Below are positions 18,577 through 62,117 of a stretch of 64,000 bases of DNA, piece after piece. This DNA is from Escherichia phage HildyBeyeler: the sequence record MZ501074; one strand, written 5' to 3'. Within the stretch, counting starts at the first letter, position 1. Every line of letters starts with the position of its first letter. A model generated the notes under the pieces. The model had not been told where the DNA came from, searched no databases, and saw only the letters and a list, made by a program, of their open reading frames with translations. Made by a program: the position numbers and the translations under genes.

Positions 18577-18605
18577 TTGCTAATTTATTAAGTTATCTGT
18601 ATAAT
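18577..18605 (+). promoter_or_regulatory. sigma70-type promoter
   Basis: TTGCTA-17-TATAAT. Confidence 0.6.
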
Positions 18606-18635
18606 ATATTTTTAAATTGATGAAACGAGGCTATT

Positions 18636-19457
18636 ATGGGTAAATTACAAAAACAAATACTACCATATATAGATTATATCCGAGAAATTATAGAGTATAA
18701 TCCCTATACTGGTAAATTATTCTATAAGCCTAATAAATATAAGAATAAAACTTGGCATACTTTATATGCTGGGAGAGAAATATGTAGTAAGAACTCTGAT
18801 GGGTACATCAGAGTTAGTTTGCTCTTAGATAATAAACCCACAATTATTTATGGACACCGAATAGCGTGGCTCCTTCACTATGGGGAGGAACCACCTGCTA
18901 TGATTGATCATATAAATACTATACCGTGGGATAATAGAATTATTAACCTAAGAGAGACAAATTTTAAGTTAAACAGACTTAATACTAACAAAACGGTAGG
19001 TGTAGAGCTGCTGCCAGAAGGATTTGTGTACAGCATTACATTAGGTGAAAAGTTTTTTGTATCCCCCGGCTTCCCCACTTTCGAACAAGCTAAAGTGGAA
19101 AGAGAAAAACTAGTAAATGGTTTATGTAATGCAGAAATTGGGAAGCAGACCAATATTCTAATAGACGATGTTAGAGATTTACCTGAAATGTCCATTATTT
19201 GTCGTACAGTTATAGGTGCGCTGGAACTATCAGATGTGTTTAGTTTCACAGGATCCTATTTATTTATGGACTCAGATTTAGGAGATTCAGAGGTACAAGG
19301 AAAAGATTTATTAGATCATATACTATTATTAGGTCAAAGACCCCTAAAAGTGATTCTAGTAACATCTAATCCTGTTGACGCAGAGTACATGAGAGGTACT
19401 CTTACGTCTTATGGATACCGAGAAAATCCCAATAGATTAGAATATGATCTATTTTAA
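18636..19457 (+). CDS. HNH homing endonuclease
   Basis: GHRIAWLLHYGEEPPAMIDHIN...NLRETN HNH signature. Confidence 0.7.
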   Translation: MGKLQKQILPYIDYIREIIEYNPYTGKLFYKPNKYKNKTWHTLYAGREICSKNSDGYIRVSLLLDNKPTIIYGHRIAWLLHYGEEPPAMIDHINTIPWDNRIINLRETNFKLNRLNTNKTVGVELLPEGFVYSITLGEKFFVSPGFPTFEQAKVEREKLVNGLCNAEIGKQTNILIDDVRDLPEMSIICRTVIGALELSDVFSFTGSYLFMDSDLGDSEVQGKDLLDHILLLGQRPLKVILVTSNPVDAEYMRGTLTSYGYRENPNRLEYDLF

Positions 19458-19469
19458 GGAGTAAAAAGA

Positions 19470-19919
19470 ATGAAGGCAGCTTTGCTTTTAGTAGCTGCCC
19501 TTACCTTCAGCTTCAATAGTCATGCGACCTACGACTCAAAGCAGATTGATTGCATTGCAAAAAATATCTACTTCGAAGCACGAGGTGAGGGCATAAAGGG
19601 AATGACGGCGATTGCACACGTTACTAAAAACCGTGTTAACTCTGGTACTTTTCCTGATTCTTACTGTAAAGTAGTATATCAGTCTAACCAGTTCTCTTGG
19701 GTATCTAAGAGACCAAAAGTTGATAAAACTGATGAGGCTTGGAAAACCGCCAAGAATTTAGCTAGAGTGATATACTACGTTGATTCACCACAAGATCCTA
19801 CACATGGAGCGTTATACTTCCATAGTGGTAAAGATAAACCGCGCTGGACAAAGAAGTTTAAGAAAACAACTAAGATTGAGGGACATACATTTTATAAGCC
19901 TGTTGTCACTAAAACTTAA
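19470..19919 (+). CDS. secreted SleB/CwlJ-like cell-wall hydrolase
   Basis: Signal peptide then NIYFEARGE...AIAHVTKNR...CKVVYQSNQFSW motif. Confidence 0.5.
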   Translation: MKAALLLVAALTFSFNSHATYDSKQIDCIAKNIYFEARGEGIKGMTAIAHVTKNRVNSGTFPDSYCKVVYQSNQFSWVSKRPKVDKTDEAWKTAKNLARVIYYVDSPQDPTHGALYFHSGKDKPRWTKKFKKTTKIEGHTFYKPVVTKT

Positions 19920-19927
19920 AAATTTAT

Positions 19928-19956
19928 TTGCTTAAATACTTAAACTTCTGTATAAT
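19928..19956 (+). promoter_or_regulatory. sigma70-type promoter
   Basis: TTGCTT-17-TATAAT. Confidence 0.6.
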
Positions 19957-19987
19957 ACTTTCATAAATTAATGAGAGGAAGCGAAAT

Positions 19988-20158
19988 ATGAAAAACTTGA
20001 TCGTCATTGGTGTTAACACTCGCGGTATTCGTACTACGAAAACTGTTAAAACTTCTAACGTTGCTGAGATCACTACGAACCCTAAAAAGTTTGATTTCGC
20101 CAAAGTCTCAGCAGTTATGACAGAACAATCTTTTAACCAAGCGTTAGGAATGAAATAA
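19988..20158 (+). CDS. hypothetical small protein (56 aa)
   Basis: Not in ORF track (under 60 aa); GAGAGGAAG RBS; stop overlaps next ATG as TAATG. Confidence 0.45.
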   Translation: MKNLIVIGVNTRGIRTTKTVKTSNVAEITTNPKKFDFAKVSAVMTEQSFNQALGMK

Positions 20159-20601
20159 TGGGAGAGAATATTTTAGATGTTTTGCGTAGAGCTTTGCAGG
20201 ATTCTAAGTTTAATGGTTCTGATAAAGAAGTCGCTAAAAGCTATCAGACCATAATCGGGGATCTTCAGCGTATTGATAAAGATTTCATCACTTCTGAACA
20301 ATTTGTGTCTTATCTCAAAGCTCAACTAAAAAGCATTAACCAGATGAAAGCTAAACTTCATGGTCAAGATCTTGATAGTTATAGCTTGCAGTCCGCTCAG
20401 TATGAATACATTCTAAATAAGTGGTTGCAGGAGTATCTGCCTCCTCAGTTATCTGATACTGAGATTCGTAAATACTTTGCAGAATTAGTTAAGCTAAACC
20501 CTGGAATTACAAAAGGTATGCTGATGAAAGCGATTAAGGAAGAATTTCCTGGGCGTTATGATGGTGGTACTGCTGCTCAGATTGCTGGCGAATTTAATTA
20601 A
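20158..20601 (+). CDS. hypothetical protein
   Basis: ORF track. Confidence 0.5.
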   Translation: MGENILDVLRRALQDSKFNGSDKEVAKSYQTIIGDLQRIDKDFITSEQFVSYLKAQLKSINQMKAKLHGQDLDSYSLQSAQYEYILNKWLQEYLPPQLSDTEIRKYFAELVKLNPGITKGMLMKAIKEEFPGRYDGGTAAQIAGEFN

Positions 20602-20609
20602 AAATTTAT

Positions 20610-20638
20610 TTGCTAAATGCCTATAAATTCTGTATAAT
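20610..20638 (+). promoter_or_regulatory. sigma70-type promoter
   Basis: TTGCTA-17-TATAAT; drives ORF-free region. Confidence 0.55.
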
Positions 20639-20861
20639 ATATTAATAAATTAGAGAACAGCGGGCCGATTACGCTGAGTGCAGAATCCAAACCGGAGTGC
20701 ATTGAATAGAGTCGGTGGGTTAGTTGTAAAACTAGTACACAGTGGGCGGCAATCCCGGTTAGTGGCTAGAACGTGTAAAATGGGGCGTCTGAAACCTCTC
20801 CCCTAAACTCTTCTCTAGTTTATAAATAGTGGGGTGTGGAAATCACTTATGTAGTAACACT

Positions 20862-20933
20862 GCCGATCTAGTATAAACGGTATTATCAAGCCGTAACTGG
20901 TGGAAGATGTAGGTTCGAATCCTACGATCGGTA
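20862..20933 (+). ncRNA. tRNA-like element (acceptor plus canonical T-arm, poor anticodon arm)
   Basis: GCCGATC/GATCGGT acceptor pairing and GTAGG-TTCGAAT-CCTAC T-arm. Confidence 0.3.
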
Positions 20934-21434
20934 AGAACTGGATAACTGGTGCTTTTAACGTAAAAGCTTCCGAGGTTAGTTGCGCACTGCCTAAACCACG
21001 CGGTAGTTGGTTCCAGACTAACCAACCAGTCTGCTGAATAGTTTTATTACGATTTAACTATGTCCAGGCTAAAGAAGAACTTTAGAAGGTATTCTAGGTG
21101 GTGAAGTTTTTCCTCCATATCGGAGTAGTTTTTCAAGCTACCAACAAAGTGGGAAATGCTGACATGAGAGATGTCACTAATGGTGCACAATAGCACAGGT
21201 AATTCGCGATAACTCCTGTTGAGTAGCAGCAAAAGGCGGGAAGTCATGACCCCAAGCCTAACCGAGTCCTCAATATACCGCAGGACATAACCACTAAGTC
21301 ACCCTGACTTAAACTGGAAAATAATAGACGTTACTGTATTTTGTCTTGAAATACTTAATGAGTGAGACTTATGACTCTCCCGGTATCGTCTGTATTTTTA
21401 AGAGTTTTTACGAGAGTTCTTAAAAATACTTAAA

Positions 21435-35506: not shown

Positions 35507-36187
35507 ATGAGGATTATTTCTAAGTTCGCCGATGTGTATGATCTGCAGAACAGTTTGTTTGACCCAGATCGTGTGTGGGAACGTAAAACTGAAGAGCTAA
35601 CAATAAAAGCCCCAGATGATGACAACTATACGATCATGCAAGAACGTAGGATTGCTCGTATTGAGGGAAAGATTGGTTACTTTAAAATTTTGCCTTTCTT
35701 CCTAGCTGGGGAGATTTACTGGTTATACCACATTGATGTACTGGATACCCAAGTAAAAACCTTCAGTTTGGACGAGGCGTTAGAAATTTTGGAGGAGAAG
35801 GGATGGTCAACAGGGTTTTCTTTGCTAGACATAAATAGGGGGAAGCCAAAAGAGTCTATCTTAGCATGGCAAGAAGAAGTTACCCCCAAAGCTAAAGAAG
35901 CCTTAACTGAGTTAAGAGTACCCTTAGCAATTCTAGACTCAGTAGTTCCAAATGATAAAGATAACAATAAATACTTCAAGGTTATAACTAATCCACGCCT
36001 ACACCTATCAGGAATACCGTGGCAGAGTGTGGAACCTAACTTATATCGACTGCACCAAAGAATCGAGCAGTATATTTGGGGTGTACTAGGAACTGGTGAG
36101 CCTGATATGATTACTGTGTCAGATAAAGACCGCCTAGCAGCACATGGATTTGATACGGTTACGTCATTCAGGAATATGAAAAGATGA
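35507..36187 (+). CDS. hypothetical protein
   Basis: ORF track; AAGAGGA RBS. Confidence 0.5.
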   Translation: MRIISKFADVYDLQNSLFDPDRVWERKTEELTIKAPDDDNYTIMQERRIARIEGKIGYFKILPFFLAGEIYWLYHIDVLDTQVKTFSLDEALEILEEKGWSTGFSLLDINRGKPKESILAWQEEVTPKAKEALTELRVPLAILDSVVPNDKDNNKYFKVITNPRLHLSGIPWQSVEPNLYRLHQRIEQYIWGVLGTGEPDMITVSDKDRLAAHGFDTVTSFRNMKR

Positions 36188-36627
36188 TAAAAAACTTTAT
36201 TAGTTCTCTATGGCAAGGTAAATGGTATATCCTGGGAGCAGGTCTAGCGATAGGCATCGGATTCGGTGCTTATCACTTAGTAGATAAAGTGGAGACTTTA
36301 GCAGGAGATCTTGCGGTAGCTACTAAAAAGATTTCTTCCCTAGAAACTTCCCTCAATAAGGTGAAAGCTGAAAGCGAACTTCGTGAGACTAGAATGAATC
36401 AGTATTTCACAATGAATAATATTTCGCAAGCAGATCTAGACAAAAAGATTAAGCAGTTAGATAAAGCTCTTAGTCGCCAAGATATTATAGCTGCAAAGCC
36501 TGGATTGGTAACATTAATTGCTAAAAAGCAGAGTAAAGAATTTGAGGAGAGATTAGCATGTCTTTCTGGAAGTGTGGAATACTGCTCGCAGCCGCAATCA
36601 CAATCACAGGCTGTGCACAAGAAATAA
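36184..36627 (+). CDS. i-spanin-like protein (N-terminal TM plus coiled coil)
   Basis: ILGAGLAIGIGFGAY TM helix then coiled coil; overlaps downstream lipoprotein gene. Confidence 0.4.
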   Translation: MIKNFISSLWQGKWYILGAGLAIGIGFGAYHLVDKVETLAGDLAVATKKISSLETSLNKVKAESELRETRMNQYFTMNNISQADLDKKIKQLDKALSRQDIIAAKPGLVTLIAKKQSKEFEERLACLSGSVEYCSQPQSQSQAVHKK

Positions 36628-36911
36628 AGCCAGAGCCCTCTCATGAGCTACCAACAGCTCACGTAGATTGGCCTAAAGGACTTCAACCTTGTAGCTTTGA
36701 CTTTAAGTTTGAAAAGAAAGTAGCTACAAATGGAGAAGAGGGCGTAGTAGTTGTTGTACCATATAAAGATTGGAATATGTTGGCAAAATGCCGTGAGGCA
36801 GAATATTCCTTTATTTCACGACTGACTAGTATGGTTTGCTTCTATCGCCAAGATTTACAAGAAAAACGTTGCTTAATTTACTATCCACCCATTAACAGTA
36901 GGAAAGATTAA
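36558..36911 (+). CDS. o-spanin-like lipoprotein
   Basis: Signal peptide with lipobox ITGC; start embedded in 3-prime end of 36184-36627. Confidence 0.4.
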   Translation: MSFWKCGILLAAAITITGCAQEIKPEPSHELPTAHVDWPKGLQPCSFDFKFEKKVATNGEEGVVVVVPYKDWNMLAKCREAEYSFISRLTSMVCFYRQDLQEKRCLIYYPPINSRKD

Positions 36912-38378: not shown

Positions 38379-38407
38379 TTGAAATTTTCCTCCAAAATTA
38401 GTATAAT
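38379..38407 (+). promoter_or_regulatory. sigma70-type promoter
   Basis: TTGAAA-17-TATAAT; also TTGACA at 38329. Confidence 0.55.
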
Positions 38408-38432
38408 GGTACTGGTTAGAGGAGGTTACAAA

Positions 38433-39089
38433 TTGGAAAAGTTCTTACAATTATTAACAGTACTGCTCCAAGAAGCGAAAGACCCAGCATCGCTTCTTAA
38501 ACGTCTGCTAACTATCTTAGTTGCTGTCATTATTTTCTTATTTGTTAGTAATACTAGTGAGGTGATGTCATTCTTAAAGACTTTCTCCACGTCTGCGGTT
38601 CTACAGGATGTTCAAACTCAAAGGATAAGTAATTTTCCTAACGTAGCTAGAGAAAAGAGCATGGTGCTTTTTTCCCAAACGGGTGCGGATGCTGTTTTTG
38701 TAGTCAAGTATAAACCCGATGCCATTAATGATTATTCTAACATTATTGCATGGGAAAGCAATGCGCAATTAGATAGGGCTGACTTGGCTGATAAAGCGGT
38801 AAATAAGACGTCTGAGCTATATAGACGTCACTTAGACGGCTTTAACTACGCATCGGATTTAAGTGTAAAAGTAAATAAATACATGGGGTTAAATATACCT
38901 GCGTTTAAGAACGTTACTTTTAATTACATATACACTTGTCCGTATTTCAATCTAAACAATATCTATGCTGGATATATTGGTATTGCTTGGAAAGATAATC
39001 CTGTAGATACAGCTGATTCTGAACAGTTCAAGGAATATTTAGCAAAGCTCTGTTCCCCACAACAGAGATCTTTAGGTAGGTCAATATGA
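38433..39089 (+). CDS. holin-like membrane protein
   Basis: TTG 38433 after GAGGAGG (218 codons); TM segment; immediately upstream of endolysin with ATGA overlap. Confidence 0.5.
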   Translation: MEKFLQLLTVLLQEAKDPASLLKRLLTILVAVIIFLFVSNTSEVMSFLKTFSTSAVLQDVQTQRISNFPNVAREKSMVLFSQTGADAVFVVKYKPDAINDYSNIIAWESNAQLDRADLADKAVNKTSELYRRHLDGFNYASDLSVKVNKYMGLNIPAFKNVTFNYIYTCPYFNLNNIYAGYIGIAWKDNPVDTADSEQFKEYLAKLCSPQQRSLGRSI

Positions 39090-39499
39090 GTTTTAAATTT
39101 AGTAAAAGAAGTTTAGATAGATTAAAGGGTGTTCATCCAGATTTAGTAAAAGTAACTCATAGAGCTTTAGAATTAAGCCCATATGATTTTACTATTACAG
39201 AAGGATTACGTTCCTTAGAACAAAGCGCCCAAAATATTAAGAATGGAACCTCGTTTTTAAAAGACCCGAGCAAGTCAAAACACGTACAAGGGCTGGCTGT
39301 TGACTTTGCTCCTCTTAAAAATGGGGAGATTGATTGGAATGATTTAGAATCATTCAAATTAGTGGCAGATGCCTTCTTTAAGGCAGCAGAAGAGCTAGGA
39401 GTAAAGATTAGATGGGGTGGTGATTGGAACCAGAACGGAAGTTATAAGGATGAAATCCAACGTGGTACTTTTGATGGCCCACATATAGAATTGATTTAA
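39086..39499 (+). CDS. lys: endolysin, L-alanyl-D-glutamate peptidase (M15-type)
   Basis: 137 aa; SKSKHVQGLAVDFAP...GGDWN...DGPHIEL zinc-peptidase motifs. Confidence 0.85.
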   Translation: MSFKFSKRSLDRLKGVHPDLVKVTHRALELSPYDFTITEGLRSLEQSAQNIKNGTSFLKDPSKSKHVQGLAVDFAPLKNGEIDWNDLESFKLVADAFFKAAEELGVKIRWGGDWNQNGSYKDEIQRGTFDGPHIELI

Positions 39500-61850: not shown

Positions 61851-62117
61851 TTACAGGTAGTTAGATTGCTCTAGTTTAAATTTACAATCACCGTATTTAA
61901 GATCAAACTGACTGAGATCCCACCACCCAAACTTAGTACGGAGCTGTACTACTGGAAAGCGATCTCCCTTAATACGAACTTTTTGAACCTTGAGGCCGTA
62001 ATGCTCCTCCCCAGCACCGCCAAAAGATTTTACAAATCCCGTACAAAATGGTTTGGGAGCAGGTGCACAACCAGATAACATAGCTGCGGCAACTAGTGCA
62101 ATTACAAACTTTTTCAT
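61851..62117 (-). CDS. llp: Llp-like lipoprotein (candidate receptor-blocking superinfection exclusion protein)
   Basis: Signal peptide with lipobox LSGC; divergent from receptor-binding-protein gene as in T5. Confidence 0.5.
   Translation of the reverse strand: MKKFVIALVAAAMLSGCAPAPKPFCTGFVKSFGGAGEEHYGLKVQKVRIKGDRFPVVQLRTKFGWWDLSQFDLKYGDCKFKLEQSNYL

What the first reader, a model, noticed from the sequence alone, without database searches (positions are those of the whole stretch)
19470..19919. Secreted SleB/CwlJ-like hydrolase distinct from the endolysin
The phage encodes an M15-type endolysin (39086-39499) and also a signal-peptide-bearing SleB-family cell-wall hydrolase. A second exported peptidoglycan hydrolase is unusual for a Gram-negative phage and may act from the periplasm.
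Basis: partly seen in the sequence, partly recalled or inferred. Interest (0 to 1): 0.4.

Follow-up and report, generated by a model that had tools for sequence, protein, structure and literature searches.

The report
T5-type exported SleB-like wall hydrolase
This is the well-conserved, already annotated "cell wall hydrolase" gene of T5-like phages (the T5.083 ortholog): a small SleB-fold wall-cutting enzyme with a secretion signal, encoded far from the normal lysis genes, and its role has never been tested directly.

Summary
Window 19470-19919 (+) is a real 149-aa gene with a strong ribosome-binding site. It matches Pfam Hydrolase_2 (E 5.7e-25). Its AlphaFold model (pLDDT 92.7) matches only the Bacillus SleB catalytic domain in the PDB, and the catalytic-motif glutamate (E36) is invariant. 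Residues 1-19 look like a classical cleavable Sec signal peptide, and this feature is kept in divergent homologs.

The window is a T5-like phage. The protein is 89% identical to T5.083, which has been annotated as "cell wall hydrolase homolog" since the first T5 genome records. A complete separate lysis set is present: T-type holin, L-Ala-D-Glu M15 endolysin and a spanin pair.

The claim that this is unusual does not hold. The gene is found in about 517 T5-like records, matching the 518 that carry the M15 endolysin. Homologs occur in 1,367 phage records, mostly from Gram-negative hosts. The two-"endolysin" arrangement and the signal peptides have been published.

The function is untested. The best reading is an accessory periplasmic glycan-strand cleaver that acts without the holin. 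A T5 knock-down screen found no fitness effect, but the screen was insensitive. Ordinary, already known, low interest.

The parts
18577..18605 (+). Sigma-70-type promoter-like site (TTGCTA-17-TATAAT) ahead of the two-gene unit that ends with the hydrolase gene
   Evidence: Consensus scan, 10 of 12 matches. T5 has an annotated promoter at the equivalent place upstream of T5.084-T5.083. This is a consensus match only.
18636..19457 (+). Upstream cistron: a 273-aa in-frame fusion of an HNH_3 homing endonuclease (N-terminal half) with a cREC_REC domain (C-terminal half, the T5.084 homolog)
   Evidence: Pfam HNH_3 E 5e-11 and cREC_REC E 1e-12. Residues 173-271 are 49% identical to T5.084. The endonuclease part is variably present in relatives.
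19456..19461 (+). Shine-Dalgarno sequence AAGGAG, 8 nt before the ATG; it overlaps the stop codon of the upstream ORF
   Evidence: Read directly from the sequence.
19470..19526 (+). Predicted Sec signal peptide (residues 1-19, MKAALLLVAALTFSFNSHA), with cleavage expected after A19
   Evidence: Fits the n/h/c-region layout and the -3/-1 rule. A hydrophobic N-terminus with an AXA-like site at the same position is kept in homologs down to about 35% identity even though its sequence changes. It lies outside the region aligned to SleB, which starts at residue 20.
19527..19919 (+). Mature single-domain SleB/CwlJ-family (Hydrolase_2) enzyme: 130 aa, 15.0 kDa, pI 9.7, with a lysine-rich C-terminus; the range includes the stop codon
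   Evidence: Pfam and PHROG matches. Sequence matches to PDB 4F55 and 4FET. AF2 model pLDDT 92.7. Foldseek hits in PDB and BFVD. Physicochemical values.
19575..19577 (+). Codon of E36, the putative catalytic glutamate in the motif Y-F-E-A-R-G-E
   Evidence: Aligns with the first E of YGESRGE in SleB 4F55/4FET. Invariant in 34 homologs of 33-91% identity. That this glutamate is the catalytic residue in SleB comes from my knowledge of the SleB structure papers, not from a tool result.
19551..19553 (+). Codon of C28, half of an invariant cysteine pair (with C66, codon 19665-19667)
   Evidence: C28 and C66 are the only cysteines and are invariant in alignment A1. The matching positions in Bacillus SleB are Leu and Ser. 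A periplasmic disulfide is an inference; the Cys-Cys distance in the model could not be read out.
19928..19956 (+). Promoter-like TTGCTT-17-TATAAT just after the stop codon, serving the next genes (DUF7616, YqeY-like)
   Evidence: Read from the sequence. It matches the position of the annotated T5 promoter P-D/E 33 between T5.083 and T5.082. It marks the 3' end of the unit.
36184..36911 (+). Context: overlapping spanin pair (36184-36627 and 36558-36911; the second has a lipobox)
   Evidence: PHROG 739 and 812, Rz-like spanins. Lipobox ITGC flagged.
38379..39499 (+). Context: the canonical lysis pair, T-type holin (38379-39089) overlapping the M15 L-Ala-D-Glu peptidase endolysin (39086-39499)
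   Evidence: Pfam Phage_holin_T E 4e-113 and Peptidase_M15_4 E 2e-9. PHROG 860 and 465. PDB 2MXZ, T5 L-alanyl-D-glutamate peptidase, E 4e-57.

Best explanation
The gene is the ortholog of phage T5 gene T5.083. It is transcribed from an early sigma-70-type promoter as the second cistron after a cREC_REC-domain gene. Its product is made as a 149-aa precursor. The Sec pathway exports it and signal peptidase I cleaves it after Ala19. In the periplasm it folds into a 15-kDa, strongly basic, single-domain SleB/CwlJ-type enzyme, probably stabilised by a C28-C66 disulfide. Using Glu36, it cleaves the glycan strands of host peptidoglycan; by analogy with SleB it would act as a lytic transglycosylase. 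Because it reaches the wall on its own, it does not depend on the holin. I propose it is an accessory muralytic enzyme. It nicks or loosens the sacculus during infection and complements the holin-released M15 peptidase, which cuts the peptide stems, so that wall breakdown at lysis is faster or more robust. Shown here: the ORF, family, fold, conserved catalytic motif, conserved export signal, core-gene status and separation from the lysis cassette. Inferred: signal-peptide cleavage, the disulfide, the bond cleaved, the timing of expression and the role in lysis. Confidence is about 0.85 that it is an exported peptidoglycan-cleaving enzyme and about 0.55 for the whole statement including the accessory lysis role.
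For: - **Family and fold:**
- **Catalytic motif:** E36, R38 and G39 are invariant in 34 homologs of 33-91% identity.
- **Selection:** dN/dS is 0.20 against T5.083.
- **Export signal:** it is conserved as a feature while its sequence drifts, and some homologs carry a lipobox or a longer membrane anchor instead, so the family as a whole is extracytoplasmic.
- **Cysteine pair:** invariant in this clade and absent from Bacillus SleB.
- **Context:** a promoter-like site lies upstream, and T5 annotation places promoters at the same positions.
- **Separate lysis genes:** holin, M15 peptidase and spanins sit 16-19 kb away.
- **Core-gene status:** about 517 T5-like records carry it, against 518 for the M15 endolysin.
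- **Related proteins:** the SleB-like protein of Pectobacterium phage CB7 has a signal peptide and was reported toxic when expressed in E. coli, as data not shown (PMC7344957).
- **Charge:** the mature protein is strongly basic with a lysine-rich C-terminus, as reported for Hydrolase_2 lysins of Gram-negative phages (PMC8223927).
Against: - No activity, localisation or phenotype has been measured for this protein or for T5.083, and no paper on T5.083 was found.
- In the CRISPRi-ART screen of T5, knock-down of T5.083 scored 'Not Fit', meaning no detectable fitness cost (PMC11879866, supplementary file 16). The same screen also scored lys, the spanins and several known essential genes as 'Not Fit', so it is insensitive.
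- Bacillus SleB needs muramic-delta-lactam in spore cortex, which E. coli peptidoglycan lacks (my knowledge). Substrate and bond specificity may therefore differ.
- An exported muralytic enzyme made from an early promoter should risk premature lysis, and how this is avoided is unexplained.
- SignalP could not be run.
Confidence: 0.55

Rival explanations
1. It is a signal-anchor-release (SAR) type endolysin. The N-terminal segment is not cleaved and tethers the enzyme to the inner membrane in an inactive state. The enzyme is released and activated when the holin collapses the membrane potential.
For: The N-terminal segment is rich in Ala, Ser and Thr: 8 of the 17 residues between K2 and T20. 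Some homologs have longer Gly/Ala-rich anchors, for example P0062, P0072 and JG004 gp029. This would explain why early expression does not lyse the cell.
Against: The hydrophobic core is only about 13 residues (A3-F15), too short to span a membrane. A small-X-small site is kept at the same position in divergent homologs: SHA, SQA, AYA, SYA, VQA, TFA, AIA. The SleB-fold alignment starts at residue 20, so the segment is not part of the catalytic domain. The partner holin is a T-type large-hole holin rather than a pinholin; the link between SAR endolysins and pinholins is from my own knowledge.
Confidence: 0.12
2. It is an exported peptidoglycan-remodelling enzyme whose role is not lysis. Acting early in the periplasm, it might alter the wall to hinder superinfecting phages, allow cell enlargement, release muropeptides or support some envelope process. 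Lysis would be left to holin, M15 endolysin and spanins.
For: It is placed in the early tRNA/auxiliary-gene region, co-transcribed with a cREC_REC gene and 19 kb from the lysis cassette. A full canonical lysis set already exists. Knock-down shows no fitness cost in the laboratory. Distant relatives sit among nucleotide-metabolism or rII genes rather than lysis genes.
Against: No positive evidence exists for any specific alternative role. T5 holin and endolysin also lie in the early region, so position says little. [quoted passage not shown]
Confidence: 0.2
3. It is a virion-associated lysin used to pierce the wall during DNA injection.
For: Hydrolase_2 domains occur inside very large phage proteins of more than 1,000 aa, which are probably tail or tape-measure proteins, for example Agrobacterium phage Atu_ph03 and Rhizobium phage Palo.
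Against: A Sec signal peptide removes the protein from the cytoplasm where virions assemble. It is a free 15-kDa protein in the early region. Gel-band mass spectrometry of the T5-like phage AKFV33 identified four major structural proteins, none of them this one, but that analysis covered major bands only. From my knowledge, T5 entry muralytic activity is attributed to the tape-measure protein pb2.
Confidence: 0.03
4. It is a degenerate or non-catalytic relic kept by linkage.
For: No phenotype was seen on knock-down.
Against: dN/dS is 0.20. The catalytic motif and 13 invariant columns are kept across 34 divergent homologs. The gene is present in essentially all T5-like genomes and was retained in the T5 st0 deletion strain, whose deletion ends two genes away.
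Confidence: 0.03

Closest known systems
Phage T5 gene T5.083 / T5p081 ('cell wall hydrolase homolog', relabelled 'endolysin' in RefSeq) and its orthologs across T5-like phages
   Same: 89% amino-acid identity over all 149 residues, with the same signal peptide, catalytic motif and cysteine pair. Same neighbours: a cREC_REC gene upstream, DUF7616 and YqeY-like genes downstream, then the tRNA cluster. The best database match is 96.6% identical, in Salmonella phage Tennessee.
   Different: Here the upstream T5.084-like gene is fused to an HNH homing endonuclease. There are 16 substitutions, mostly conservative.
Bacillus SleB catalytic domain (PDB 4F55, 4FET), a germination-specific lytic transglycosylase
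   Same: Same fold (Foldseek probability 1.00, TM 0.73-0.80, rmsd 2.3-2.9 A). 28-30% identity. The E-x-R-G-E motif is aligned.
   Different: It is not a SleB ortholog: the TIGR02869 score is 52 against a cut-off of 236.5. It has no N-terminal peptidoglycan-binding domain. It has a cysteine pair that SleB lacks. The host has no spore cortex or muramic-delta-lactam. The single-domain architecture is closer to CwlJ (my knowledge).
SleB-like proteins of Vequintavirinae and Certrevirus phages (CB7_83, CR3_087, rV5-like phages)
   Same: They are small Hydrolase_2 proteins with an N-terminal signal peptide in large virulent Gram-negative phages that also carry other wall-degrading enzymes. CB7_83 is reported toxic in E. 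coli (PMC7344957). The PMBT16 homolog has the signal peptide KIKIFAIILSALLSLPVVA.
   Different: Only about 35-40% identity. Both cysteines of the T5-type pair are replaced. The context differs: CB7_83 overlaps a putative holin, and the PMBT16 gene lies next to rIIA/rIIB.
Secreted and SAR endolysins (Oenococcus phage fOg44 Lys44; P1 Lyz, phage 21 R21)
   Same: The concept is the same: a phage muralytic enzyme reaches the wall through the host Sec system without needing holin holes (my knowledge).
   Different: The folds are unrelated (lysozyme families). Those enzymes are the phage's sole endolysin and sit in the lysis cassette. SAR domains are uncleaved membrane anchors, whereas this protein has a short, cleavable-looking signal peptide.
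T5 Lys (EndoT5), an M15 L-alanyl-D-glutamate peptidase
   Same: It is encoded in the same genome and targets the same sacculus.
   Different: It has an unrelated zinc-peptidase fold, no signal peptide, overlaps the holin gene and cuts peptide stems rather than glycan strands.

Membership tests
Pfam Hydrolase_2 (PF07486), SleB/CwlJ cell-wall hydrolase domain | Profile match above the curated gathering score | tested here: met
   88.3 bits against a cut-off of 27, E 5.7e-25, covering profile positions 1-100 of 100.
Pfam Hydrolase_2 (PF07486), SleB/CwlJ cell-wall hydrolase domain | Three-dimensional fold of the SleB catalytic domain | tested here: met
   The AF2 model has pLDDT 92.7. The only significant PDB hits are 4F55 and 4FET, with probability 1.00 and TM 0.73-0.80.
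Pfam Hydrolase_2 (PF07486), SleB/CwlJ cell-wall hydrolase domain | Conserved catalytic glutamate in the E-[AS]-R-G-E motif | tested here: met
   E36 aligns with the SleB motif and is invariant in 34 homologs.
Pfam Hydrolase_2 (PF07486), SleB/CwlJ cell-wall hydrolase domain | Lytic transglycosylase chemistry (1,6-anhydro-muramyl products) | not testable with these tools
   This needs muropeptide analysis of digested sacculi.
SleB proper (NCBIfam TIGR02869 equivalog, spore cortex-lytic enzyme) | Equivalog-level score and two-domain architecture with an N-terminal peptidoglycan-binding domain | tested here: not met
   52 bits against a cut-off of 236.5. Only the C-terminal positions 79-201 of the model are matched. 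There is no PG_binding domain in Pfam.
Canonical holin-dependent endolysin | Cytoplasmic protein without an export signal, encoded in or next to the holin/spanin cassette | tested here: not met
   It has a signal-peptide-like N-terminus. It lies about 19 kb from the holin and endolysin and about 16 kb from the spanins.
Secreted (signal-peptide) muralytic enzyme | Cleavable type I signal peptide: basic n-region, 7-15 residue h-region and small residues at -3 and -1 | tested here: met
   K2, then A3-F15, then S17-H18-A19|T20. The site position is conserved in divergent homologs. This rests on rule-based and comparative evidence only; SignalP and experiments were not available.
SAR endolysin | Uncleaved, weakly hydrophobic N-terminal transmembrane segment of about 18 or more residues that forms part of, or regulates, the catalytic domain | tested here: inconclusive
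   The hydrophobic core is about 13 residues with a conserved cleavage-type site, and it lies outside the SleB-aligned region. This argues against SAR but cannot exclude it without localisation data.
T5-like phage core gene set (T5.083 orthologs) | High identity to T5.083, conserved synteny and presence across the group | tested here: met
   89% identity, shared synteny, and 517 records against 518 for the endolysin marker.

The most novel reading that the evidence does not exclude
The exported SleB-type enzyme and the holin-released M15 peptidase may be functionally redundant routes to wall destruction, so that T5-like phages can lyse even when one is lost or inhibited. Alternatively, the exported enzyme may have an early periplasmic job unrelated to lysis, such as wall remodelling that blocks superinfection or prepares the envelope. 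The weak hint is that in the T5 knock-down screen the holin scored as important, while lys and T5.083 each scored as dispensable. That screen also missed several known essential genes.
Probability: 0.2. Interest if true: 0.5.

Novelty: already known. Interest (0 to 1): 0.18.

Why it matters
It matters little as a discovery. The gene, its domain and its coexistence with the M15 endolysin are in public annotations and papers. The residual value is practical. About 500 sequenced T5-like phages, and many rV5-like and PAK_P1-like phages, carry a conserved, exported wall-cleaving enzyme whose function has not been tested directly. RefSeq and PHROG label it "endolysin", which may well be wrong for the T5 group because the real lysis cassette is elsewhere. 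A clean knock-out and a muropeptide assay would settle whether these phages use two independent routes to the cell wall. They would also show whether this small basic enzyme could be useful as an antibacterial.

Tried and rejected
- **Literature on T5.083:** a full-text search for 'T5.083' found nothing. Searches on T5 transcriptomics and 'T5st0' gave no relevant paper.
- **T5 st0 deletion:** I checked whether this classical deletion removes the gene, which would show it is dispensable. It does not. The deletion ends in T5p079 and T5p081 is retained.
- **Lysis cassette in distant relatives:** I looked for the family inside an obvious lysis cassette. The JG004 gene lies among ligase and phosphohydrolase genes, the 7-11 gene among hypothetical genes with no membrane-protein neighbours, and the PMBT16 gene next to rIIA/rIIB. 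None was informative.
- **AlphaFold database search:** the afdb50 library was unavailable.
- **Disulfide check:** the C28-C66 distance could not be measured because model coordinates are not exposed.
- **Ladybird-beetle PF07486 proteins:** the paper shows activity against B. subtilis but not intact E. coli. This says nothing about action from inside the outer membrane.
- **Other readings:** a lipoprotein reading is rejected because the signal peptide has no cysteine. A Tat signal is rejected because there is no twin-arginine motif.

Full report
**1. The observation**

An ORF of 149 codons lies exactly at 19470-19919 on the + strand. An AAGGAG ribosome-binding site sits 8 nt upstream and overlaps the stop codon of the preceding ORF. 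The product matches Pfam Hydrolase_2 (PF07486, 'Cell Wall Hydrolase') end to end, at E 5.7e-25 and 88 bits against a cut-off of 27. It also matches PHROG 938. In the PDB its only sequence relatives are the catalytic domains of Bacillus cereus and B. anthracis SleB, 4F55 and 4FET, at E about 1e-8.

An AlphaFold2 model built on a 34-sequence alignment is confident, with mean pLDDT 92.7.

**2. What the window is**

The 2.1 kb around the gene matches 439 phage records at 80-99% nucleotide identity, almost all Salmonella and Escherichia T5-like phages. The window also carries the T5-type tRNA cluster, with 21 tRNAs. The protein is 89% identical over its full length to T5.083 of phage T5. It is 96.6% identical to a protein of Salmonella phage Tennessee.

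In the T5 st0 genome record the same gene, T5p081, is annotated 'cell wall hydrolase homolog; contains PF07486 and COG3773'. RefSeq now labels T5.083 'endolysin'.

**3. The enzyme**

The motif Y-F-E36-A-R-G-E aligns with Y-G-E-S-R-G-E of SleB. In an alignment of 34 homologs sharing 33-91% identity with the query, thirteen positions are invariant: C28, A30, E36, R38, G39, G44, V51, R55, C66, V68, V69, Q74 and H139. Against T5.083 the gene shows dN/dS of 0.20. This is a functional enzyme under purifying selection.

It is not a SleB ortholog. The SleB equivalog model scores 52 bits against a cut-off of 236.5 and matches only its C-terminal half. There is no peptidoglycan-binding domain. The protein is a single-domain member of the family, CwlJ-like in architecture (my knowledge).

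SleB is described as a lytic transglycosylase, as in the title of 4FET. Several phage papers call the domain an amidase. The bond cut by the phage enzyme is untested.

**4. The export signal**

Residues 1-19, MKAALLLVAALTFSFNSHA, have one basic residue, a 13-residue hydrophobic core and Ser/Ala at positions -3 and -1. The SleB-homologous region begins at residue 20.

Nearly all of the 80 database homologs have an N-terminal hydrophobic segment. Its sequence drifts freely, yet in the closer relatives a small-X-small site stays at the same position: SHA, SQA, AYA, SYA, VQA, TFA, AIA. A few homologs carry a lipobox or a longer anchor instead. The homologs in an rV5-like coliphage and in Pseudomonas phage JG004 also start with a signal peptide or a membrane anchor.

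A crude rule-based scan of all 186 window ORFs of 60 aa or more picked seven. These were this ORF, the o-spanin lipoprotein, a lipobox-bearing ORF at 61851-62117 (likely the T5 llp-type lipoprotein), and four others.

C28 and C66 are the only cysteines and are invariant in this clade. Bacillus SleB has Leu and Ser at those positions. This fits a disulfide formed in the periplasm, but it is an inference. SignalP was not available, and cleavage is predicted, not shown. The mature protein would be 130 aa, 15.0 kDa and pI 9.7, with 10 Lys/Arg in its last 30 residues.

**5. Context**

A TTGCTA-17-TATAAT promoter-like site at 18577-18605 precedes a two-gene unit. The first gene, 18636-19457, is an HNH homing endonuclease fused in frame to a cREC_REC domain that is 49% identical to free-standing T5.084. 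The hydrolase is the second gene. A further promoter-like element, TTGCTT-17-TATAAT at 19928-19956, follows its stop codon. T5 annotation places promoters at both equivalent positions.

The canonical lysis genes are elsewhere and complete:
- a spanin pair at 36184-36911;
- a T-type holin at 38379-39089;
- an overlapping M15 endolysin at 39086-39499.

The M15 endolysin matches the solved T5 L-alanyl-D-glutamate peptidase 2MXZ at E 4e-57. The phage therefore has a peptide-stem cutter released by a holin and a probable glycan-strand cutter that exports itself.

**6. Is it unusual?**

No. tblastn finds homologs in 1,367 of 50,697 phage records. The main groups are Escherichia 391, Salmonella 293, Pseudomonas 192 and Klebsiella 122.

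Records with a homolog at 60% identity or more number 517. The M15 endolysin gives 518 at the same threshold. The gene is therefore effectively a core gene of T5-like phages. BFVD holds 45 viral structure clusters with this fold, mostly from phages of Gram-negative hosts.

Published work agrees:
- Hydrolase_2 is listed among the catalytic domains that dominate in lysins of Gram-negative phages (PMC8223927).
- The T5-like phage AKFV33 paper lists 'lysozyme, holin and cell wall hydrolase SleB' in the early region (PMC3326045).
- A 2024 paper discusses exactly the pair 'M15C next to holin, SleB domain far from holin' in T5-like Salmonella phages (PMC11180984).
- The Vequintavirinae/Certrevirus homolog CB7_83 is reported to have a signal peptide and to be toxic in E. 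coli (PMC7344957).

**7. Functional data**

No paper on T5.083 itself was found. In the genome-wide dCas13d knock-down screen of T5, T5.083 scored 'Not Fit', with mean guide fitness -3.97 and p 0.73 (PMC11879866, supplementary file 16). In that screen the label means knock-down had no measurable fitness cost for the phage. In the same table the holin C1 is 'Fit', while lys and both spanins are 'Not Fit'.

This is compatible with redundancy between the two wall enzymes. However, several known replication and virion genes (D10, D13, D16, D17) also scored 'Not Fit'. The screen is insensitive for T5, so the hint is weak. The classical st0 deletion stops two genes short of the hydrolase and says nothing about whether it is dispensable.

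**8. Mechanism and rivals**

| Reading | Confidence |
|---|---|
| Exported peptidoglycan-cleaving enzyme (biochemical identity) | about 0.85 |
| Whole main statement, including the accessory lysis role | about 0.55 |
| Non-lysis periplasmic role | 0.2 |
| SAR-type tethered endolysin | 0.12 |
| Virion-associated lysin | 0.03 |
| Inactive relic | 0.03 |

My best reading is a Sec-exported, SPase-I-processed periplasmic SleB-type glycan-strand cleaver. It acts independently of the holin and assists wall breakdown, complementing the M15 peptidase.

The SAR reading is disfavoured by the short hydrophobic core and the conserved cleavage-type site. The non-lysis reading is supported only by gene position and the lack of a knock-down phenotype. 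The virion-lysin reading is unlikely for a signal-peptide protein encoded in the early region. The relic reading is excluded in practice by the conservation.

One point remains unexplained. An active muralytic enzyme exported from early in infection should risk premature lysis, yet it evidently does not cause it. The reason could be low activity balanced by ongoing wall synthesis until the holin fires, or some form of regulation.

**9. Verdict**

This is a known, widely annotated core gene of T5-like phages belonging to a known enzyme family. What is missing is experimental function, not recognition. Novelty: already known. Interest: low.

Noticed in passing
window 18636-19457 (+): A single 273-aa ORF fuses an HNH_3 homing endonuclease (residues ~1-165) in frame to a cREC_REC 'cyclic-phosphate processing receiver' domain. 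That domain is 49% identical to the free-standing 105-aa T5.084. No internal start codon is evident at the junction. Only 19 of 439 related records cover 80% or more of the 18600-20700 segment, so the endonuclease half is a variable insertion. One relative (SelmaRatti) annotates an intein here.
   Followed up: partly
window 39086-39499 (+): The M15 endolysin is a minority allele. It is 90-99% identical to only about two dozen phage records (for example Shigella phage SHSML-45, 97.8%) but about 65% identical to the ~494 other T5-like records. The SleB-like gene is about 91% identical to the bulk. This suggests the lysis cassette has been exchanged between lineages.
   Followed up: partly
L003 (Escherichia phage PMBT16, PP554575) 2402-2902: The SleB-like gene of this rV5-like phage is annotated as two short overlapping 'hypothetical' CDS. 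A continuous 166-aa ORF with a clear signal peptide starts at a GTG, immediately upstream of rIIA/rIIB. This looks like a mis-annotation in the public record.
   Followed up: partly
T5 genes T5.040, T5.041, T5.044/045, T5.083 (orthologs at window 39086-39499, 38379-39089, 36184-36911, 19470-19919): In the published CRISPRi-ART T5 screen the holin scores as important, but the endolysin, both spanins and the SleB-like gene all score as dispensable. This could reflect redundancy of the wall-degrading enzymes, or simply the low sensitivity of that screen for T5.
   Followed up: partly
window 20861-20934 (+): ARAGORN calls a tRNA-Ser with the unusual anticodon ACT. It lies in the stretch that corresponds, by position between the YqeY-like gene and tRNA-Arg, to the 719-nt 'RNAX' stable RNA of unknown function annotated in T5.
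   Followed up: no
window 19988-20158 (+) and 20158-20601 (+): The genes immediately downstream are a 56-aa DUF7616 protein (PHROG 5077, function unknown) and a YqeY/GatB-like 'tRNA amidotransferase' homolog. Both are conserved with T5.082 and T5.081 and sit at the edge of the tRNA cluster. The T5 st0 deletion ends inside the T5.081 ortholog.
   Followed up: no
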